Below are positions 6,580-54,061 of a stretch of 54,061 nucleotides of DNA, piece after piece. Below the pieces are notes generated by a model, which searched no databases, was not told the origin of the DNA, and was given only the letters and a program-made list of their open reading frames with translations. The first letter of the stretch is position 1. Each line of letters begins with the position of its first letter. This stretch comes from Armatimonadota bacterium (GTDB lineage Bacteria > Armatimonadota > SYMT01): positions 1 to 54,061 of the forward strand of contig JBKBRF010000046.1 of the NCBI GenBank assembly GCA_046292385.1, read 5' to 3'. A program made the translations under genes and the position numbers.

Positions 6580-7275
6580 CTACATCAGCCCCCGCTGCTT
6601 CATGCTGACCCACTTTCCGTCGCCGATGATGACGTGGTCGAGCAGCTCGATCCCGAGGAGCTTCGCGCCCTCTTGCAGGCGCTTCGTGGTGGCGATGTCC
6701 TGCGGGGAGGGGTCCGGGTCGCCGGAGGGGTGATTGTGGACCAGCACCAGCGAGGCGGCGTTGAACTGGAACGCCTCCTTGAAGACCTCCCGCGGGTGGA
6801 CCAGGCTCTCGGTCAGCGTGCCGGTCGAGATCCGTCGGCGGTGGCGCACCTGGTTGCGGGCGTCGAGCACCAGGGCGAACAGGTGCTCACGGGCTTCGTA
6901 GCGCAGCTCGCTCATCATGAGCTGGGCCACGTCGGCGGGCGAGCGGATCACCGGCTTCACCTCGTCGCTCGTCGCCGCGACCCGCTTCGCCAGCTCGAAC
7001 GCCGCCTTCACTTCGATCGCCTTCACGCGGCCGATGCCGTCGACCCGTGCGAGCTGCTCCAGGCTGGCGTTCGCCAGCCCGGAAAGCCCGCCGAGCTCCC
7101 GGAACAGCTCCTCCGCCAGCTGCACCGCGTTCCGCCTGGAGGTCCCGGTGCGGAAAAGGATCGCCAGCAGCTCCGGCGTGGTGAGACTCTCCGGCCCGGA
7201 AGCCTCCAGCCGCTCCCGCGGCCGGGACTCCGGGAGCATATCGGCGATGCGAAGGGCGTTGTAGGCTTCGGACAT
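6580..7275 (-). CDS. radC: RadC family JAB/MPN domain protein
   Basis: RPRERL, HhH GIGRVKA, VHPREVF, HNHPSGDPDPSPQD, LLDHVII. Confidence 0.95.
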   Translation of the reverse strand: MSEAYNALRIADMLPESRPRERLEASGPESLTTPELLAILFRTGTSRRNAVQLAEELFRELGGLSGLANASLEQLARVDGIGRVKAIEVKAAFELAKRVAATSDEVKPVIRSPADVAQLMMSELRYEAREHLFALVLDARNQVRHRRRISTGTLTESLVHPREVFKEAFQFNAASLVLVHNHPSGDPDPSPQDIATTKRLQEGAKLLGIELLDHVIIGDGKWVSMKQRGLM

Positions 7276-7375
7276 AGAAAGCGGAAGGAGAGTGGACGAT
7301 GCAAGGTCGTTCACCCGCCGGGCCGGGGGGCTCCTGCCTTTTGGACAAGTTCGCAGGTGCACTCGGCGAGAACAA

Positions 7376-8025
7376 CATCTCACCGAGGTTCCACCCCGTG
7401 CCCTCACCGGGTGGAGCGGCCCTCCCGGGTGAGTGGCCCTCCCGCAGTCCTTTCACGCTCCGGCTTCGCCCCCCGTTCGGGGGGTGAACCTCCGCTAGCG
7501 GACTGCTCCGGGCGTGCACTTCGGTAGGCTGCGCTCCGCGTCCGAGTACGGCGGGCTTTCGCAGCGCGGCGAATCACGGGCCGCTCCACCCGGCTCAAGC
7601 AGCCACCCCTTCCGCCCGCGAGCGGGCACCCGGGGGTGCCCACAAGTGGAGCCCTCCGCCGCTGCCTACGGCAGCGCCTCCAGGCTCCTTCGGTAGCGCG
7701 GGCGAAGGCCTATCCAGTGGCGTTCGGAGGCGGAGCCGCAGGCTCTGCCGGAGGACGGCAATTGTGACCGCCCCTGGGTGCCAGGGGCGGTAGCTCGACG
7801 GCGGCCGATTCAGCCCGTGAACCAGCCGGCTGTGGCGGTAGAGCGCACTGGCGCGGGAAGAGCGCATCGGGATGCACCCCCGGAGCGGCCCGCTAACGGA
7901 GCGAAGCGGAGTGTGAAAGGGCCGGCGCAGGGCCCTCGTCGCGGGAGGGCTGAATCGGCCGACTAGGGCTCGGGGTCGGACCGCGGTTCCAACGCTGTTG
8001 CACGCAAAGGCAGTGCACACTCCGC
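7376..8025. repeat. ~650-bp structured dispersed repeat, copy A
   Basis: Collinear with the reverse complement of 13289-13941; 47-nt identical block 7592-7638; compensatory stem changes; boundaries approximate. Confidence 0.9.
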
Positions 8026-8224
8026 GTCGGAGGCCCGTCCGCCAGACCGGGAGGCTGATTCGGCGCGCGGGCTCGAGCCACGACACCAGGGCTGCCAACC
8101 GCAAGCCATAAGAAACCACCCAAAGCCGACCCCCGACCGGATAGCAATCAGCCGCTCGACGCACTCATCACCCCAGGGATAAGATAGGAGCGGTCTGCCC
8201 GCGCGGGGCAGCTGTGGGGGTCTC

Positions 8225-9172
8225 ATGGAGCGCAACGTCACCATCATCGGTTCCGGTCCGGCGGGCTACACCGCCGCCATCTACGCGGCGCGAGCCAACC
8301 TCAAGCCGCTGCTCATCCAGGGCATGCAGCCGGGCGGACAGCTCACGATCACCACCGACGTGGAGAACTACCCCGGCTTCCCGGACGGCATCATGGGCCC
8401 GGAGATGATGGAGCTGTTCCAGAAGCAGGCGACGCGCTTCGGGACCGAGATCGTCTGGGGCACGGTGACGAAGGTCGACTTCAGCGGCTGGCCGTTCCGG
8501 CTCTACACGGAGGACGACGAGTTCGTCTCCAAGACGGTCATCATCGCGACCGGCGCCTCCGCCAAGTGGCTCGGCCTGAAGGGGGAGCTCCCCTGGCCGG
8601 AAGGGCTCGGCGGCCGCGGCGTCTCCGCGTGCGCCACGTGCGACGGCTTCTTCTTCAAGAACCAGGACGTGCTGGTGGTGGGCGGCGGCGATACCGCCAT
8701 GGAAGAGGCGAACTACCTGACGCGGATGTGCAATTCGGTCACCATCGTCCACCGCCGCGAGGAGTTCCGCGCCAGCAAGATCATGGTCGACCGCGCGAAG
8801 GCGAACCCGAAGATCAAGTGGGTGCTGAACGCCGGCGTGGAGGAGATCCTGGGCCAGGAAGCCGGCAAGGTGACGGGAGTCCGCCTTCGCAGCACGGTGG
8901 AGGACAAGACCTGGGAGATGCCGACCGACGCCGTCTTCGTGGCGATCGGGCACAAGCCGAACAGCGACCTCTTCACCGGCCTGCTCGACATGGACGAGTT
9001 CGGCTACCTGAAGGTGAAGCCGGGCACCACCCAGACCAACATCGAAGGCGTCTTCGCCGCGGGCGACATCGCGGACCGCGTCTACCGCCAGGCAATCACC
9101 GCCGCCGGCCTCGGCTGCATGGCCGCCCTCGAAGCGGAGCGCTGGCTGGAAGCGCGAGGGGATCACCAGTAG
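8225..9172 (+). CDS. trxB: Thioredoxin-disulfide reductase
   Basis: GSGPAGYTAAIY, CATCDG active site, GGGDTAMEEA, FAAGD. Confidence 0.97.
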   Translation: MERNVTIIGSGPAGYTAAIYAARANLKPLLIQGMQPGGQLTITTDVENYPGFPDGIMGPEMMELFQKQATRFGTEIVWGTVTKVDFSGWPFRLYTEDDEFVSKTVIIATGASAKWLGLKGELPWPEGLGGRGVSACATCDGFFFKNQDVLVVGGGDTAMEEANYLTRMCNSVTIVHRREEFRASKIMVDRAKANPKIKWVLNAGVEEILGQEAGKVTGVRLRSTVEDKTWEMPTDAVFVAIGHKPNSDLFTGLLDMDEFGYLKVKPGTTQTNIEGVFAAGDIADRVYRQAITAAGLGCMAALEAERWLEARGDHQ

Positions 9173-9338
9173 GGTCTAGGGTCTAGGGGATAGGGTATAG
9201 CGCTGGCGCATGCCGGACGTGCATCTCGTGGCGCGTGCCTCCTCCCCGAGGTCCTGCCCTCGCCACTTCCGGTACGCGAGCCCTACCCGCGAGCTCAGTC
9301 CCTAGACCCTAGACCCTAGACCCTAGACCCTAGACCCT
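9170..9338. repeat. Inverted pair of heptamer arrays (TAGGGNN x4 / CCCTAGA x5) around a unique spacer
   Basis: 9170-9200 starts at the trxB stop; 9300-9338 ends 4 nt before ATG 9343. Confidence 0.9.
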
Positions 9339-9342
9339 TCCC

Positions 9343-11235
9343 ATGAGCATCCTCGTCGATACCTCTTCCAGCCCGCACGCGCGTCTGCGGGGAGTGCCGC
9401 TCGCGAACGTGCGGCTGACCGATTCGTTCTGGGAGCCGCGGCGGCGGCGCAACCAGGAGGTGACGCTCCCCTCGCAGTACCACCGGTGCGAGGAGACGGG
9501 GCGGATCGATAACTTCCGGCGCGCCGCGGGGAAGAAGGGCGGGGAGTTCCAGGGCCGGTACTACAACGACTCGGACGTCTACAAGTGGGTCGAGGCGGTC
9601 GCCTACGCCCTCGCCGCCGGGCCGGACCCGGAGCTGGAGCGGAGGGTCGATCTCGTCATCGGGGAAATGGCGGACGCCCAGGAGCCGGACGGTTACCTGA
9701 ACACCCACTTCACCCACGAGAAGCACGACCTCCGCTGGACCAACCTGCGCGACTGGCACGAGCTTTACTGCGCCGGGCACCTGATCCAGGCGGCGATCGC
9801 GCACCACCGCTGCACCGGCAAGACGACGCTGCTCCAGGTGGCGCGGCGCTTCGCCGATTACATCTGCGACGTCTTCGGACCGGAGGGGCGCAACGGCACC
9901 TGCGGCCACCAGGAGATCGAGATGGCGCTGGTGGAGCTCTACCGCCATTCCGGCGAGCCGAAGTACCTCGTGCAGGCGCAGCTCTTCATCGACCGCCGCG
10001 GGCAGAACCCGCCGGTCATCGGCGGCCGGGACTACCACCAGGACCATGCCCCGTTCCGCACGCTCGACGCGGTGACCGGCCACGCCGTGCGGATGGTCTA
10101 CTACTGCGCGGGCGCGGCGGACGTGCTGGCGGAAACGGGCGATGGGGAGTACCAGGTCGCGCTGGAGCGGCTCTGGCACAACATGGTCCACCGGCGGATG
10201 TACGTCACCGGCGGCATCGGCTCCCGCTACGAGGGGGAGGCGTTCGGCGAAGACTTCGAGCTGCCGAACGACCGCGCCTACGCGGAGTCGTGCGCCGCCA
10301 TCGGCAGCTTCATGTGGAACTGGCGGATGCTGCTCCTCACCGGCGAGGCGCGCTTTGCCGACCTGATGGAGAACGCCCTCTACAACGGGATGCTCCCGGG
10401 CCTCTCGCTGGACGGCGAGCTCTACTTCTACCAGAACCCGCTGGCGGACACCGGCAGCCACCGGCGCCAGCCCTGGTTCGAGTGCGCCTGCTGCCCGCCG
10501 AACATCGCGCGGCTGCTGGCGTCGCTGCCTGGCTACTTCTACGCCACCTCGCCGCAGGGCGTGTGGGTGCACCAGTACGCGGACGGCGACGCGCGCCTGG
10601 AGCTGGACGGCGGCTCCGTGAGCCTGCGCCAGCAGACCCGCTATCCGTGGGACGGCGAGGTTCGGATCACGCTGACCGGGTTGAGCGCCACCGGCGACTT
10701 CACCCTCCACGTCCGCATCCCCGGCTGGTGCGGGGAAGCCTCCGCGCAGGTGAATGACGAGCGGGTGGAGGGTCCCGCGCGGCCCGGCACGTACCTCAAG
10801 CTGCGGCGTCCGGACGGTCAGCCGTGGCAGTCGGGCGACGTGGTGACCCTGTCCCTGCCGATGTCCCCCACCCGGCTGGAAAGCCACCCGTACGTCGCGA
10901 ACAATACCGGACGCGTAGCGCTGCGCCGGGGCCCGCTCGTCTACTGCGCGGAGCAGGCGGACCTCGGGGTCGATCCCCGCGACGTGGTGCTGCCGGCCGA
11001 GGCGGAGCTGGCGCCGGAGTGGCGTCCCGAGCTGCTCGGCGGCGTGGTGGTGCTCCGCGGCGAAGCGGTCGCTCGCGAGCAGGGCGCCGCCTGGGGCGGC
11101 GAGCTCTACCGCAGTGAAGCCCCCGCCGCGCCCGCGGAGCGCCCGATCCCGTTTACGGCGATCCCCTACTACGCCTGGGCCAACCGCGAGCCCGGCGGCA
11201 TGGCGGTCTGGATCCGGGGCTTCGCCAGGGTATAG
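9343..11235 (+). CDS. GH127 beta-L-arabinofuranosidase family protein
   Basis: DSDVYKW, HELYCAGH, GHAVR, YAESCAAIG, CACCPPN motifs. Confidence 0.93.
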   Translation: MSILVDTSSSPHARLRGVPLANVRLTDSFWEPRRRRNQEVTLPSQYHRCEETGRIDNFRRAAGKKGGEFQGRYYNDSDVYKWVEAVAYALAAGPDPELERRVDLVIGEMADAQEPDGYLNTHFTHEKHDLRWTNLRDWHELYCAGHLIQAAIAHHRCTGKTTLLQVARRFADYICDVFGPEGRNGTCGHQEIEMALVELYRHSGEPKYLVQAQLFIDRRGQNPPVIGGRDYHQDHAPFRTLDAVTGHAVRMVYYCAGAADVLAETGDGEYQVALERLWHNMVHRRMYVTGGIGSRYEGEAFGEDFELPNDRAYAESCAAIGSFMWNWRMLLLTGEARFADLMENALYNGMLPGLSLDGELYFYQNPLADTGSHRRQPWFECACCPPNIARLLASLPGYFYATSPQGVWVHQYADGDARLELDGGSVSLRQQTRYPWDGEVRITLTGLSATGDFTLHVRIPGWCGEASAQVNDERVEGPARPGTYLKLRRPDGQPWQSGDVVTLSLPMSPTRLESHPYVANNTGRVALRRGPLVYCAEQADLGVDPRDVVLPAEAELAPEWRPELLGGVVVLRGEAVAREQGAAWGGELYRSEAPAAPAERPIPFTAIPYYAWANREPGGMAVWIRGFARV

Positions 11236-11260
11236 GGTTCAGGGGCCAGGGTGTAGGTCT
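11226..11260 (+). repeat. Heptamer array (YAGGGNN x4-5) overlapping the GH127 stop codon
   Basis: cagggta tagggtt caggggc cagggtg taggtct; no clear complementary array. Confidence 0.7.
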
Positions 11261-11445
11261 CGCGGGGGCTGCTGCGCCTTCCGCCGGAGGGGAGCTCCTG
11301 CTCCTGCTCGCTGGCGACCCCCATTACTCCGGCACGTCTGCGTGAGCTGGAGCAACGACGCGCTCTACAAGACCTCCGCGGGTTGCCGCCCGCGCGGGCT
11401 GCGCCCTACAATCAGGGAAGCAAGCGGCGTCCGGAGGAGTGAGAC

Positions 11446-12309
11446 GTGAAGATCGCGGTGCTCGGGGCATCCGGGATGCTGGGGCGGGACCTCTGCCAGG
11501 TGCTGGCGGAGCGCCACTACGTGGTGCCGCTCTCCCGCGCCGAGGCGGACGTCACCGACCTCCGCCACCTCGTCGGCGTGCTGGAGCCGCGCCGGCCGGA
11601 GCTGATCATCAACTGCGCCGCCGCCACGCACGTCGACCGCTGCGAATCCGAGCCGGACTGGGCCTACCGGATCAACGCCTGGGGCGCCTGGAGCGCCGCC
11701 TCCGCCGCGCAGGAACTGGGGGCGCGTCTGATCCACCTCAGCACCGACTTCGTCTTCCCCGGCGACACCGAGCGCCCTTACACCGAATGGGACCCGGTCC
11801 GGCCGCTCAGCGTCTACGGTGCCTCCAAGCGCGCAGGCGAGGAAGCGGTCTTCCGCGCCTGCAGCCGCGCGACGATCGTGCGGACGCAGTGGCTCTTCGG
11901 ACGACACGGAAAGAGCTTTCCCCGGGCGATTCTGGAGGCGGCGCGGCGCTCGCCGGAGCAGGGGCTGCGGGTCGTGTCGGACCAGTGGGGCGCGCCTACT
12001 TACACGCGCCACCTGGCACGGAAGCTGGCGTGGCTGGCGGAGTGGAGGGTCGACGGTCTCTACCACGTGAACAACGCGGGAGAGTGCTCCCGAGAGGAGT
12101 GGGCGCGGGAGACCCTGCGGCTGGCGGGACTGTCTGAGGTGCTGGTATCGCGGATCCGCACCGCGGACTGGCCCGCTCCCGCCCCGCGCCCGGCCCGCAG
12201 CACGCTGCGGCGGTACGCGCTGGAGCTGATGGGCCAGGACGACCTGCCTCCGTGGCAGGAAGGGGTCGCTGCTTTTGTGCGGGAACTCCGGGACGCCGGG
12301 GAGCTATAG
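11446..12309 (+). CDS. rfbD: dTDP-4-dehydrorhamnose reductase
   Basis: GASGMLG, HLSTDFVF, YGASK, VVSDQWGAPT. Confidence 0.93.
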   Translation: MKIAVLGASGMLGRDLCQVLAERHYVVPLSRAEADVTDLRHLVGVLEPRRPELIINCAAATHVDRCESEPDWAYRINAWGAWSAASAAQELGARLIHLSTDFVFPGDTERPYTEWDPVRPLSVYGASKRAGEEAVFRACSRATIVRTQWLFGRHGKSFPRAILEAARRSPEQGLRVVSDQWGAPTYTRHLARKLAWLAEWRVDGLYHVNNAGECSREEWARETLRLAGLSEVLVSRIRTADWPAPAPRPARSTLRRYALELMGQDDLPPWQEGVAAFVRELRDAGEL

Positions 12310-12380
12310 AACTGGTGGAGCGCGCGCCGCAGGCACGGAAGGAAGAGCCGTCCCCGGAGCGATGCTCGGATCACGAATGC

Positions 12381-13280
12381 ATGGCTGAGATTGCGGTAGA
12401 GCGCCCGTCCGTCTGGTCCGCCCTGTTCCGCGCCCTGCGCCCGCGCCAGTGGGTGAAGAACGGCGTGCTCCTGGCGGGCATCCTGTTCACGCTCGACCAG
12501 CCGCATGGTCTGGCGGACTGGCTCCGCGTGCTGGCCGCCGTGCTCGTCTTCTGCGCCCTCGCCAGCTCCATCTACCTGGTCAACGACCTCTACGACCGGG
12601 AGCAGGACCAGCTCCACCCCACCAAGCGCCTCCGGCCCCTTGCTTCCGGCCAGATCACGCCGGGGCTCGCGCGGATCGCCGCCGTCGTCCTGGTCGTCGC
12701 CGGGATGGCGGGAGCCGTGCTCCTCGGCCCCGGGTTCAGCCTCTGCGCCGCCGCCTACCTCGCGCTCACTGTCGCCTACTCGGTGCGGCTCAAGCACGTC
12801 GTCCTGGTCGACGTCCTCGCGCTGGCGGGCTGCTACGTGATCCGCGCGGTCGCCGGCGCGGCGGTGATCTCCGTCGAGATCAGCCCCTGGCTCCTCGTCT
12901 GCACCACGCTCGGCGCGCTGCTGATCGGGCTCTCCAAGCGCCGGAACGAGCTCGCCACGCTGGAAGACGCCGGCAGCCACCGCCGCGCGCTGGAAGAATA
13001 CTCCGTGCCGATGCTCGACCAGATGATCGGCGTGGTGACCGGCAGCACGCTGGTCGCCTACATGCTCTACACCATCTCCTCCGAGACGGCGAAGGCGCAC
13101 CCGGGCATGATGCTCACCATCCCGTTCGTGATCTACGGGGTGCTGCGCTTCTTCTACCTGGTCCACCGCCACGGCAAGGGCGGCGACCCCTCCCGGGAGT
13201 TCGTGGAAGACCGGAACCTGCTGGTCTGCGGCATCCTGTGGGCGATCACCTGCGCGGGAGTGATGCTGGCCGGCCGTTAA
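12381..13280 (+). CDS. UbiA-family decaprenyl-phosphate phosphoribosyltransferase-like protein
   Basis: RPRQWVKN, YLVNDLYDREQDQLHPTKRLRPLASG, KRRNEL; multiple TMs; start uncertain. Confidence 0.88.
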   Translation: MAEIAVERPSVWSALFRALRPRQWVKNGVLLAGILFTLDQPHGLADWLRVLAAVLVFCALASSIYLVNDLYDREQDQLHPTKRLRPLASGQITPGLARIAAVVLVVAGMAGAVLLGPGFSLCAAAYLALTVAYSVRLKHVVLVDVLALAGCYVIRAVAGAAVISVEISPWLLVCTTLGALLIGLSKRRNELATLEDAGSHRRALEEYSVPMLDQMIGVVTGSTLVAYMLYTISSETAKAHPGMMLTIPFVIYGVLRFFYLVHRHGKGGDPSREFVEDRNLLVCGILWAITCAGVMLAGR

Positions 13281-13288
13281 TGTCCATT

Positions 13289-13941
13289 GCGGAGGGTGCT
13301 GCATTCCTGCGGGATTGCACCGTTGGAACCGTGGCCCGACCCTGAGCCCTAGTCAACCGCTTCAGCCCTCCCGCGGCGAGGGCCCTCCGCGGCCCTTTCA
13401 CGCTCCGGCTTCGCCTCCGCTAGCAGGCCGCTCCGGGAGTGCGCTGCGTTTAGCTCTTCCCGCGCCACCGCGCTGCGCCGCCACAGAGGCGGGGTTCACG
13501 GGCTGAATCGGCCGCCGTCGAGCTACCACCCCTGGCATCCAGGGGTGGTCACAAGTGCCGTCCTCCGGCCCAGCCTTTCGGCTGTGCCTCCGGACGCCAA
13601 AGGTCTTCCATGCGGGAACGCGTTTGGAACTCCTCGACGCTGCCCAACGCGAGGAGCCCGGAGGGTGGGCCGTAGGCGCAACCGCAGGGATCCACCTGTG
13701 GCCACCCCCGGGTGCCCGCTCGCGGGCGGAAGGGGTGGCTGCTTGAGCCAGGGAGAGCGGCCCGTGAGTCGCCGTTCTGGCGCAGCCGCAGCCCTCGGAC
13801 GCGGAACACAAGTGGTCGGAGCGCACGCCCGTAGCGCCCGCTAGCGGAGCCGGAGGCGGAGCGTGAAGGGCCGCGGAGGGCCATGCACGCGGGAGGGCCG
13901 CTCTCCCTGGTGAGGGCACGGGGTGAGCCCTCGTCGAGATG
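13289..13941. repeat. ~650-bp structured dispersed repeat, copy B (inverted relative to copy A)
   Basis: Reverse complement aligns with 7376-8025; identical block 13703-13749. Confidence 0.9.
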
Positions 13942-14078: not shown

Positions 14079-14873
14079 ATGCATCAAGCTGACATCGGCA
14101 TCTTTGGCGGCTCCGGCTTCTACTCGTTCCTGCCGGACGTGGAGACGATCCGCGTCCACACCCCCTACGGCCCACCGAGCGACCGCATCGCCCTGGCGAC
14201 CGTCGGCGGCAAGCGGGTCGCGTTCCTGCCGCGGCACGGGCGGGACCACTCCGTCCCCGCGCACGCGGTCAACTTTCGCGCCAACATCTGGGCGCTGAAG
14301 GAGCTGGGTGTCAAGGAGATCCTCGCCCCTTGCTCCTGCGGCAGCCTGCAGACTCACATCCACCCGGGCGACTTCGTGATCCTGGACCAGTTCATCGACC
14401 GCACGAAAGGCCGGAAGGACACCTTCTTCGACGGTCCGGAGACGCACCACATCGGCGCCGCGGAGCCGTACTGCAGCCGATTGCGCAGCCTCACCATCGA
14501 CCAGTGCCGCGGCCTGGGGATCCCGTTCCACGAGACCGGAACGATGGTCACCATCCAGGGACCCCGCTTCTCCACGCGGGCGGAGAGCGCCTGGTTCACC
14601 CGGGAAGGCTGGGACGTGGTCGGCATGACGCAGTATCCGGAGGCGATCCTCGCACGCGAGCTCGGAATCTGCTATACGGGAGTCGCGCTGGTGACCGACT
14701 ACGACACCGGCATCGCGCAGGGCCGGGAGCCGGTGTCGATCGAGGAAGTCTTCCGCGTCTTCACCGAGAACGTGGGCAAGGTGCGGGACCTGATCGAGGC
14801 GATGGTGCCGCTGCTCGGCGACGAGCGCCCCTGCGAGTGCGAAGAGGAAGCCCGGCGGGCCAGGGTGGGATGA
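14079..14873 (+). CDS. mtnP: S-methyl-5'-thioadenosine phosphorylase
   Basis: GIFGGSG, TPYGPPS, FLPRHG, GPRFSTRAES, GMTQYPEA, VTDYD. Confidence 0.93.
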   Translation: MHQADIGIFGGSGFYSFLPDVETIRVHTPYGPPSDRIALATVGGKRVAFLPRHGRDHSVPAHAVNFRANIWALKELGVKEILAPCSCGSLQTHIHPGDFVILDQFIDRTKGRKDTFFDGPETHHIGAAEPYCSRLRSLTIDQCRGLGIPFHETGTMVTIQGPRFSTRAESAWFTREGWDVVGMTQYPEAILARELGICYTGVALVTDYDTGIAQGREPVSIEEVFRVFTENVGKVRDLIEAMVPLLGDERPCECEEEARRARVG

Positions 14874-53737: not shown

Positions 53738-53888
53738 GCGGTCACACCAATCGGTCCGGGCCTTGGGACCCCACGCCGGACGGGTTCGCACCACAGTAAA
53801 CCATGGCCAGCCACAGATTCCACGCCTGTTAAGGTCGTTGAATAGGTACGATTGGCGAATTCGGGAGGTTGCTCTTGGGGCAAGCATT

Positions 53889-53971
53889 CGCACTCCACAG
53901 GCTAGCCCGGAAGAGATTCCCTCTCGTGGAAAGGGAGACTGCCCCGGTGCAGTCTGTGGAGTGCGGTGGCT
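53889..53971. repeat. REP-like GGAGTGCG motifs in inverted orientation
   Basis: cgcactccacag at 53889-53900 and ctgtggagtgcggtggct at 53954-53971. Confidence 0.55.
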
Positions 53972-54061
53972 CGTGTCACACGCTGTAAAGTTGGTGCGCC
54001 CCGGGGCGCAGAGTATGTTTTGCCGGCTGCAGGGCGGGTACTCGCTTTACAGCCGGAATCA

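What the first reader, a model, noticed from the sequence alone, without database searches (positions are those of the whole stretch)
7376..13941. Two inverted ~650-bp non-coding elements with compensatory base changes: candidate new large structured RNA or ssDNA mobile element
Seen: 7376-8025 and the reverse complement of 13289-13941 are collinear, roughly 75-80% identical by eye, with a 47-nt identical core (7592-7638 = 13703-13749) and no convincing ORF. Several differences preserve pairing. (a) The 16-bp long-range stem CCGGGTGGAGCGGCCC/GGGCCGCTCCACCCGG (7407-7422/7578-7593) becomes CCAGGGAGAGCGGCCC/GGGCCGCTCTCCCTGG (13748-13763/13895-13910): three double substitutions, still perfect. (b) The 11-bp hairpin 7767-7791 versus 13525-13549 swaps a G-C pair for A-T. 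(c) GAGCC-gca-GGCTC (7733-7745) becomes CAGCC-gaaa-GGCTG on the minus strand of 13571-13584. Inference: structure is under selection, so this may be a large ncRNA or a non-autonomous element moved through a folded single strand. I cannot match it to a family I know, and found no target-site duplication or nearby transposase.
Basis: partly seen in the sequence, partly recalled or inferred. Interest (0 to 1): 0.85.

Follow-up and report, generated by a model that had tools for sequence, protein, structure and literature searches.

The report
Dispersed structured mobile repeat family
The two look-alike non-coding stretches are two of roughly 135 copies of a gene-less, intricately folded, about 270-base element that has spread between the genes of this Armatimonadota bacterium; it is an unusually large and complex example of a known kind of bacterial repeat, and what moves it is still unknown.

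Summary
It is not a two-copy feature. Each ~620-bp stretch is a convergent pair of two ~268-nt modules of different subfamilies, A and B. The genome holds 146 hits and 134 near-full modules: 27 such pairs and 80 singles.

Modules lie between genes, in any orientation, at a median 70% identity. They keep a six-helix fold: 54 pairs, 93.7% paired, 30 pairs with compensatory changes. No Rfam family matches.

The family occurs in 3 of 7 genomes of one Armatimonadota family and in 0 of 144 other genomes of the phylum searched.

It is mobile. Filled sites face empty sites in relatives and in a paralogous gene cluster.

A young ~800-bp subfamily has fixed, unlike tips and no target duplication. No associated gene, TnpB or reverse transcriptase was found.

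Best reading: a new, large, structured non-autonomous mobile repeat. It may move as a folded single strand. The acting strand, DNA versus RNA, and the mobilising enzyme are all unresolved.

The parts
7379..7687 (+). Module 1 (subfamily A) of the first pair. It carries extra hairpins at 7468-7483 and 7614-7627.
   Evidence: nhmmer hit covering model columns 2-268. It is a row of alignment A1. 51 of 54 consensus pairs form.
7688..7719 (.). Spacer between the two convergent modules of pair 1 (about 33 nt).
   Evidence: The spacer classes over all pairs are about 28-35, 50-56 and 71-94 nt.
7720..7990 (-). Module 2 (subfamily B) of the first pair.
   Evidence: 53 of 54 consensus pairs form.
13325..13597 (+). 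Module 3 (subfamily B) of the second pair.
   Evidence: 49 of 54 pairs form.
13598..13653 (.). Spacer of pair 2 (56 nt).
13654..13938 (-). Module 4 (subfamily A) of the second pair.
   Evidence: 51 of 54 pairs form.
7408..7592 (+). Helix P2 of module 1: a long-range 15-bp stem, 7408-7422 paired with 7578-7592. The same helix lies at 7947-7961/7802-7816, 13354-13368/13500-13514 and 13895-13909/13749-13763 in the other three modules.
   Evidence: 11 of its 15 pairs change on both sides across 50 modules, and 94% of cells are paired.
7602..7640 (+). Helix P5 hairpin of module 1 (7602-7610/7632-7640). In the other modules it lies at 7783-7791/7767-7775, 13525-13533/13541-13549 and 13731-13739/13701-13709.
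   Evidence: 7 of 9 pairs change on both sides. Its loop is a recurrent insertion point for another repeat.
7444..7506 (+). Helix P3 stack of module 1 (7444-7458 with 7494-7506). It encloses a tip hairpin of variable length.
7509..7538 (+). Helix P4 of module 1.
7661..7675 (+). Helix P6 hairpin of module 1.
   Evidence: This is the weakest helix (72-88% of cells paired).
7339..7378 (+). Probable 5' leader of module 1. It is only partly similar to the conserved leader of other A-type copies, which ends ...GTCATC.
   Evidence: Flank listing and subfamily consensus. Weak for this copy.
12252..13280 (+). Upstream gene of the filled site (342 aa). Orthologues are present in 5 of 6 related genomes.
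   Evidence: I did not test its family.
14079..14873 (+). Downstream gene of the filled site. In four related genera it follows the upstream gene directly.
   Evidence: tblastn. My crude gene caller preferred a minus-strand ORF here. The 75-86% identical hits in relatives support the plus-strand ORF.

Best explanation
The two stretches are two insertions of a lineage-restricted, high-copy, non-autonomous mobile element. Its building block is a ~268-nt module that folds into a closed multi-helix structure: P1 and P2 close a junction bearing P3 and P4, followed by hairpins P5 and P6. Modules occur singly or as convergent A/B pairs, and they carry short leader and tail sequences that form the real termini.

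Shown: the copy number, the intergenic spread, independent insertions in different genera, fixed asymmetric tips without target duplication in the youngest subfamily, and purifying selection on pairing and on about 54 unpaired core positions.

Inferred: the fold and core motifs are the cis-signal that a trans-acting enzyme recognises on a folded single strand. Unlike tips, no terminal inverted repeat and no duplication are the habit of single-strand (HUH Y1, IS200/IS605- or RAYT-type) or IS110-type systems. I rate 'selfish mobile repeat' at about 0.8. Within that reading I rate 'moved as folded single-stranded DNA by a Y1-type enzyme' at about 0.35. An added or alternative RNA-level role remains open.
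For: Copy number and arrangement:
- 146 hits and 134 near-full modules.
- 30 of 31 adjacent hit pairs are convergent.
- 26 of 27 near-full pairs join one A-type with one B-type module.
- 120 of 134 modules lie outside my called genes. Orientation against both neighbours is even (14/15/15/13 among intergenic singles).

Structure:
- 26 of 46 RNAalifold pairs are compensatory.
- 95.3% and 93.7% of cells are paired, against about 81% in shuffles and 37-50% with slid partners.
- Changes private to one copy run at 7.8% per unpaired column, 3.9% per paired column and 0.9% per core column. 197 of 337 changes in paired columns are compensated.

Mobility:
- A 798-nt spacer holding pair 2 sits between two genes that are about 0-200 nt apart in four other genera.
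- A 355-nt spacer holding a module sits between terminase and portal genes, which overlap by 1 nt in the paralogous cluster of the same genome.
- A pair in G005 lies between genes that are 151 nt apart and module-free in G000.
- 0 of 8 flanking-gene comparisons show a shared site.
- Copy numbers are about 135 in G000, 14 in G005 and 8 in G006.

Termini: 12 copies of a 791-823-bp (one of 614 bp) B+A composite share the tips TCTGTACTAC... and ...GCGCTGTG. Flanks of one copy share no longer words than flanks of different copies (5.33 against 5.26).

Candidate enzymes: Y1_Tnp hits number 5, 9 and 6 in the three genomes that hold the family, against 4, 1, 1 and 0 in the others.
Against: - No mobilising gene is linked. 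No protein family is enriched within 2.5 kb of modules. 0 of 14 Y1 loci in five genomes carry a module. The two IS200-type genes of G000 are flanked by unrelated hairpins.
- Most copies are old (median 85.5% identity to the nearest neighbour) yet still paired. A purely selfish element would be expected to decay after insertion, so selection on the copies where they sit (a host or RNA function) is not excluded.
- The strand indicators disagree. Hairpin loops read GNA/GAAA, and A.C exceeds G.U (53 to 21), so both point to the strand complementary to my model orientation. Yet the model strand tends to lie on the G-rich strand (51 to 29 singles, p 0.02, and 8 of these come from one cluster). In the 50-module alignment, G.U and A.C are about equal.
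- The exact ends are defined for one subfamily only.
- The Y1 count correlation rests on 7 related genomes.
Confidence: 0.8

Rival explanations
1. The module is a structured RNA that works where it sits, for example as a transcript stabiliser, processing site, translation modulator or independent small RNA. Its spread is secondary to that role.
For: The fold has six helices, invariant unpaired motifs and variable-length hairpin tips, as in functional RNAs. Even changes private to single copies are mostly compensated, and core columns change 9 times less often than other unpaired columns. All 8 modules in the prophage-like operon on contig C40 point the same way as the genes. The fold is kept in three genera.
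Against: Orientation relative to both neighbouring genes is random genome-wide. No sigma-70-like promoter or intrinsic terminator lies in or next to the window copies. No site is shared between genera. Copy number differs about ten-fold between genera. The wobble-pair test gives no consistent strand. No expression data exist for this organism in the runs offered.
Confidence: 0.25
2. The A/B pairs are internal-deletion derivatives (classical MITEs) of an insertion sequence whose long, structured ends are the A and B modules. Singles would be solo ends.
For: The arrangement is strictly convergent and heterotypic, with a few fixed spacer lengths. In the one metagenome contig found, two inverted module arms flank a 474-aa Tn5-like transposase gene.
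Against: That transposase gene has its own 20-bp inverted ends (CTAATC...) inside the arms, and the same ends flank a 47%-identical copy in G004. Its homologues occur in 11 of 151 genomes of the phylum, and 0 of 12 such loci have modules. None is in G000 or G005. The arms both stop at the P5 loop, a known insertion hot spot. Singles (80) outnumber paired modules (54). A-only singles carry the same two tips as the composite. There is no target duplication.
Confidence: 0.1
3. The family is a REP/BIME/REPIN-type element mobilised by RAYT transposases.
For: Three RAYT-like genes are present; their HUH and Y motifs are my own reading of the translations. The modules are high-copy, G+C-rich, intergenic and often in inverted pairs. 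The tail of the composite has a hairpin followed by GTAG (my reading).
Against: The RAYT-like genes are flanked by a different repeat family of about 70-150 nt. 0 of 14 Y1 loci carry a module. The module is 268 nt with six helices, not a 20-40-nt palindrome.
Confidence: 0.15

Closest known systems
bcr1 and related Bacillus cereus group repeats (Klevan 2007 and Kristoffersen 2011, as summarised in PMC3184786; passages read)
   Same: Dispersed, non-autonomous, intergenic, with a non-conserved distribution between relatives. The structure is kept by compensatory base changes.
   Different: bcr1 is about 155 bp with two stem-loops and 5-bp direct repeats, and it is known to be transcribed. The element here is 268 nt with six helices, pairs into A/B composites of 620-800 bp, shows no duplication, comes from another phylum, and its expression is unknown.
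IS200/IS605-derived non-autonomous elements (PATEs) moved by Y1 TnpA
   Same: Unlike ends, no terminal inverted repeat, no target duplication, subterminal hairpins, and a short word (CTGT) at both the left border and the right tip. Y1 genes are present in the genome.
   Different: No Y1 gene is linked and no TnpB was found. The left and right hairpins are unlike each other. A large conserved internal fold is not needed by known PATEs. That the CTGT words play the role of cleavage or target words is my inference.
REP / BIME / REPIN elements with RAYT
   Same: High-copy, intergenic, G+C-rich hairpin repeats, often in inverted pairs.
   Different: They are ten times shorter and consist of single hairpins. 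The RAYT-like genes of this genome are flanked by a different repeat.
Classical bacterial MITEs (Correia/NEMIS, ERIC, RUP)
   Same: Gene-less, dispersed, and foldable into long structures (PMC3184786).
   Different: Those have terminal inverted repeats and target duplications and fold as one long hairpin. Here the tips are unlike, there is no duplication, and the fold is branched.
Large multi-copy structured RNAs tied to mobile elements (HEARO / IscB omega RNA, IS110 bridge RNA)
   Same: Size (about 200-300 nt), several helices, many copies, and an association with elements lacking inverted repeats.
   Different: No Rfam match even at E<=10. No RRXRR or TnpB protein was found (the RRXRR control did not ring). 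The two IS110-family genes of G000 are not next to modules. The variable part here is a paired stem, not a loop.

Membership tests
Classical MITE | Terminal inverted repeats at the tips | tested here: not met
   The tips of 12 young composites are TCTGTACTAC... and ...GCGCTGTG, which are not inverted copies of each other. Only the two modules as wholes are inverted, at about 70% identity.
Classical MITE | Target-site duplication | tested here: not met
   The longest shared word between the left and right flank of the same copy averages 5.33 nt, against 5.26 for flanks of different copies (outside-only 3.92 against 3.86), in 12 copies.
Classical MITE | A parent insertion sequence with matching ends | tested here: not met
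   No protein family is enriched near modules. The Tn5-like element in L075 has its own ends and occurs elsewhere without modules.
REP/REPIN-RAYT | Short (20-40 nt) palindrome with a conserved GTAG-type head | tested here: not met
   The module is 268 nt with six helices.
REP/REPIN-RAYT | A RAYT gene flanked by the repeat | tested here: not met
   0 of 14 Y1 loci have a module. The RAYT-like genes are flanked by another repeat.
IS200/IS605-type non-autonomous element | Asymmetric ends with subterminal hairpins, no inverted repeat, no duplication | tested here: met
   for one subfamily only.
IS200/IS605-type non-autonomous element | A cognate Y1 TnpA whose own element has the same end hairpins | tested here: not met
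   The two IS200-type loci carry unrelated hairpins.
IS200/IS605-type non-autonomous element | Strand bias relative to replication | tested here: inconclusive
   51 to 29 singles agree with the GC-skew sign (p 0.02), but 8 come from one cluster and the genome is in 91 contigs.
Rfam RNA families (HEARO, group I/II introns, GOLLD, ROOL, OLE and the rest) | Score at or above the family gathering threshold | tested here: not met
   0 matches in the whole window. Only four chance-level hits (E 1.1-5.8) appear in 7250-8250.
Structured interspersed repeats of the bcr1 kind | Dispersed non-autonomous copies, non-conserved sites, structure kept by compensatory changes | tested here: met
Structured interspersed repeats of the bcr1 kind | Transcription of the repeat | not testable with these tools
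   No RNA run was listed, and the read-laying run returned nothing.

The most novel reading that the evidence does not exclude
The ~268-nt module could be a new class of structured nucleic-acid machine. It would be a fold that is itself the active partner of mobility, for example a guide or scaffold RNA, or a folded-DNA substrate, for an as yet unrecognised recombinase encoded elsewhere in the three host genomes. The hypervariable but always paired P2 stem and the A/B pairing would then encode specificity. This would explain why pairing and core motifs stay intact in old copies across three genera without any linked gene.
Probability: 0.12. Interest if true: 0.85.

Novelty: new variant of a known kind. 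Interest (0 to 1): 0.55.

Why it matters
Structured, gene-less repeats are common in bacteria, but few are this large, this complex or this well constrained. One genome supplies about 135 diverged copies, which gives unusually strong covariation support for a six-helix fold with invariant junction motifs.

The family expanded about ten-fold in one genus and inserts exactly at gene junctions inside operons, including eight times in one prophage-like structural gene cluster. It therefore shapes gene spacing and probably expression.

Its asymmetric, duplication-free ends and the lack of any linked enzyme make it a tractable case for finding how orphan structured repeats are moved. Its P5 hairpin loop is also a preferred landing site for another repeat.

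That note saw what appear to be two copies of this family elsewhere in the genome and judged them not to be a jumping element.

Tried and rejected
- Rfam: nothing at the gathering threshold, and only chance-level hits at E<=10.
- Cis-regulatory element: rejected, because orientation against neighbouring genes is random.
- Coding: rejected, because of frame-breaking indels between copies.
- Associated gene: none enriched within 2.5 kb.
- TnpB (PF07282) and reverse transcriptase (PF00078): 0 hits in G000.
- RRXRR (IscB/IsrB): 0 of 7 genomes, but the control rang nowhere, so this is uninformative.
- Tn5-like transposase between two module arms in L075: rejected as the partner.
- Y1 loci: 0 of 14 carry modules, and there is no sequence similarity to the termini.
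- Composite transposon made of the two window pairs: rejected, because gene order across pair 2 is conserved in relatives.
- Integron-like cassette array on C40: rejected, because the genes are phage structural genes in the usual order.
- Strict motif scans: 0 in genome contigs, 0 in viral contigs, 1 in metagenome contigs.
- Looser motif scan: 4 loci in genome contigs, of which 3 were chance matches by the covariance model.
- Full-length covariance model: too slow to calibrate, so a 187-position model was used.
- Sequencing runs: no RNA holder listed.
- Laying contigs of four DNA runs to look for empty sites returned nothing, so population-level insertion polymorphism and transcripts remain untested.
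- Empty site for pair 1: the upstream neighbour is not syntenic in relatives.
- Promoter and terminator consensus scan: nothing inside the elements.
- Literature: a search for Armatimonadetes + repetitive elements + intergenic found 0 papers. I did not search further, so absence from print is not established.

Full report
**Observation.**
I read both regions and checked each statement by script.
- The 47-nt identical core is confirmed.
- The two perfectly complementary 16-nt stem pairs differ at three pairs.
- The G-C to A-T swap in the 11-bp hairpin is confirmed.
- The GAGCC-gca-GGCTC / CAGCC-gaaa-GGCTG hairpin is exactly as described.

Region 7376-7997 aligns with the reverse complement of 13318-13941 at 76% identity, E about 1e-128 to 1e-132. 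The repeat finder reports the same collinear blocks.

**Scale.**
A search of the window's own genome (7.04 Mb, 91 contigs, 98% complete) found 61 matching places, so this is not a two-copy feature. Hits fall into three classes: full-length hits, hits to the left half only and hits to the right half only. The left half is about 70% identical to the reverse complement of the right half.

Iterated nhmmer converged on a 268-column module with 146 hits at E<=1e-6. Of these, 134 are near-full, which is about 0.5% of the genome. Each '650-bp element' is therefore two modules facing each other.
- Of 31 adjacent hit pairs, 30 are convergent. None is tandem or cleanly divergent.
- Clustering gives two main subfamilies.
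- 26 of 27 near-full pairs join one A-type and one B-type module.
- 80 modules are single.
- Median pairwise identity is 70%. Only 8 module pairs exceed 95%.

**Context.**
With a crude gene caller of my own, 120 of 134 modules lie outside called genes. Among intergenic singles, the four combinations of neighbour orientation are equally frequent (14, 15, 15, 13). No protein family is enriched within 2.5 kb.

Copies cluster. Contig C8 holds a dozen. Contig C40 holds eight, all co-directional, between the genes of a prophage-like cluster encoding terminase, portal, capsid, head-completion and tail-completion proteins.

**Structure.**
A MAFFT alignment of 50 modules shows invariant blocks separated by stems whose sequences differ but stay complementary. 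It also shows hairpin tips of variable length. I took the 50 modules that lay in loci already held, out of 134.
- RNAalifold predicts 46 pairs, of which 26 have compensatory changes.
- For a 54-pair structure including P6, 93.7% of cells pair, against 80.8% in column shuffles (0 of 500 reach the observed value) and 37-50% with partners slid by 1-3 columns. 348 cells change on both sides, against 110 expected. 30 pairs have double changes.
- A second alignment that includes two copies from a relative gives 95.3% against 80.9%.

Subfamily relatedness inflates such counts. However, pairs such as 22-250 (CG 26, AU 12, UA 10) and 34-237 (CG 22, GC 16, AU 4, UA 3) show repeated independent changes. 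The four window modules form 49-53 of the 54 pairs. Indels of 1, 2, 6, 8 and 20 nt between copies exclude a conserved reading frame. Rfam has no match.

**Distribution.**
Earlier notes of this scan call the organism an uncultured Armatimonadota bacterium.
- BLAST found the family in 1 of 40 relatives.
- A 187-position covariance model found it in 3 of 151 genomes of the phylum: G000 plus 2 of the 6 other genomes of its family (three genera), and 0 of 144 outside that family.
- With 150 candidates scored per genome, G005 has 14 copies and G006 has 8. These include convergent pairs and, unlike G000, tandem arrays.
- A strict motif found nothing in 185,579 species genomes or in viral contigs, and one metagenome contig.
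- A looser motif found four loci. Only one, an Armatimonadota MAG record, is confirmed by the model.

**Mobility.**
Three comparisons show filled sites facing empty sites.
- First site: the gene at 12252-13280 and the gene at 14079-14873 are 798 nt apart in the window, with pair 2 between them. In G005, G002, G001 and G004 their orthologues (62-86% identity) are neighbours, roughly 0-200 nt apart by my reading of the tblastn coordinates, and no module is present.
- Second site: on C40 a module fills a 355-nt gap between the terminase and portal genes. In a paralogous cluster on C12 (terminase 71% identical) the two reading frames overlap by one base, and there is no module.
- Third site: a pair in G005 lies between two genes whose G000 counterparts are 151 nt apart on a contig without any module.

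In 0 of 8 flanking-gene comparisons is a site shared between genera. Insertions are therefore independent in each lineage, and the family expanded about ten-fold in G000.

**Ends.**
Near-identical copies reveal the unit of spread. A B+A composite of 791-823 bp extends about 135 nt and about 70 nt beyond the two modules. There are twelve such copies, one of them shortened to 614 bp.
- Its tips are TCTGTACTACTC... and ...AGCCGCGCTGTG.
- They are not inverted copies of each other.
- Each has a nearby hairpin.
- Flanks of one copy share no longer words than flanks of different copies, so there is no target duplication.
- A-only singles carry the same two termini.
- Some B-only singles are deletion derivatives of the composite.
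- Both borders contain CTGT, and 7-8 of 12 right flanks run into CTCTGT-type heptamer tracts. I read this as a possible target word; it is an inference.

**What moves it.**
- TnpB and reverse transcriptase are not found.
- Y1 (HUH) transposase genes are present: 5 in G000, 9 in G005, 6 in G006, against 4, 1, 1 and 0 in the four genomes without the family. None of 14 Y1 loci carries a module, and their own flanking hairpins are unrelated.
- In metagenome contig L075 a Tn5-like transposase gene lies between two inverted module arms. However, that gene has its own 20-bp inverted ends, shared with a homologue in G004. Homologues occur in 11 of 151 genomes without modules at any of 12 loci, and none is in G000. 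It is an insertion into the module, not its parent.

**Strand, and RNA or DNA.**
Terminal loops of the P3 tip and of P6 read T-N-C closed by C-G in my model orientation. On the complementary strand they therefore read G-N-A, and one reads GAAA. From memory, GNA triloops closed by C-G are very stable in DNA, and GNRA loops are stable in RNA.

Other evidence is mixed.
- Among changes private to one copy, A.C mismatches outnumber G.U 53 to 21, which points to the same complementary strand.
- This asymmetry comes mainly from P2, and it is absent in the 50-module alignment.
- Single modules tend to have the model strand on the G-rich strand (51 to 29).

These indicators do not give one consistent picture. 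I could obtain no RNA evidence.

**Selection.**
Changes private to one copy are 7.8% per unpaired column, 3.9% per paired column and 0.9% per core column. 197 of 337 changes in paired columns are compensated. Two readings fit:
- the fold is selected in each resident copy, or
- the divergence arose in propagating lineages whose intermediates are lost.
The data cannot separate these. This is why an RNA-level or host role keeps a quarter of my odds.

**Comparison and verdict.**
Dispersed non-autonomous repeats whose structure is kept by compensatory changes are known, for example bcr1 of the Bacillus cereus group (review PMC3184786, passages read). This family is of that kind. It is larger, branched and modular (A/B pairs), lacks duplications and inverted tips, and is confined to one Armatimonadota family.

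I file it as a new variant of a known kind. The copy number and the empty sites found here contradict that reading. I could not confirm that its two stretches belong to this family.

Noticed in passing
G000 contig ends, including the window's right end (about 53,850-54,061); for example C9:132455-132692: A second high-copy repeat ends in GATTTCGCCAACAGTATC, with 78 such ends found. Small copies are about 236 bp. By my count, about 25-29 of the 78 ends abut module sequence, most at the P5 hairpin loop; at C9 the word TCGCCA is duplicated. About 37 ends abut another palindromic repeat (…GCCGCGCAAG|CGCAAGCGCG…). This repeat terminates most contigs of the assembly.
   Followed up: partly
G000 C6:73829-75366 and contig C91 (1,413 bp): Two IS110-family transposase genes were found. 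The one on C6 lies between two ends of the repeat described above. C91 looks like a collapsed copy. The relation between this insertion sequence, the 236-bp repeat and the RAYT-like genes is unresolved.
   Followed up: partly
G000 C40:62260-62790, C83:9667-10392, C5 near 163200: Three RAYT-like Y1 genes; the HUH and Y motifs are my reading. They are flanked by inverted GGAGTGCG...CGCACTCC repeats that occur in 60-85 places in the genome.
   Followed up: partly
window 9170-9200 and 9300-9338: Inverted arrays of a 7-base unit (TAGGGTC / GACCCTA) lie between the genes at 8225-9172 and 9343-11235. Similar heptamer tracts (CTCTGTG type) adjoin many composite elements.
   Followed up: no
G000 C40:16,000-40,000 (L031, L032) and C12:90,400-93,400 (L091): There are two paralogous prophage-like structural gene clusters. 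The C40 copy holds eight modules, all co-directional with the genes and of diverse subfamilies. The C12 copy holds none in the stretch examined, and its terminase match contains one in-frame TGA.
   Followed up: partly
L075 744-2243 (metagenome contig): A 1.5-kb Tn5-like insertion sequence with 20-bp CTAATC... ends sits between two inverted module arms, both cut at the P5 loop, without a direct repeat. This suggests insertion followed by rearrangement.
   Followed up: partly
G006 C236:9086-11959 and C47:3730-4904; G005 C3:830649-836866: In the relatives some modules stand in same-direction tandem arrays 350-800 nt apart. This arrangement is not seen in G000.
   Followed up: no
window 11446-12309 and 12252-13280: My crude gene calls overlap by 58 nt. 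The start of the second gene is probably further downstream, since relatives align from residue 24-57 onward.
   Followed up: no
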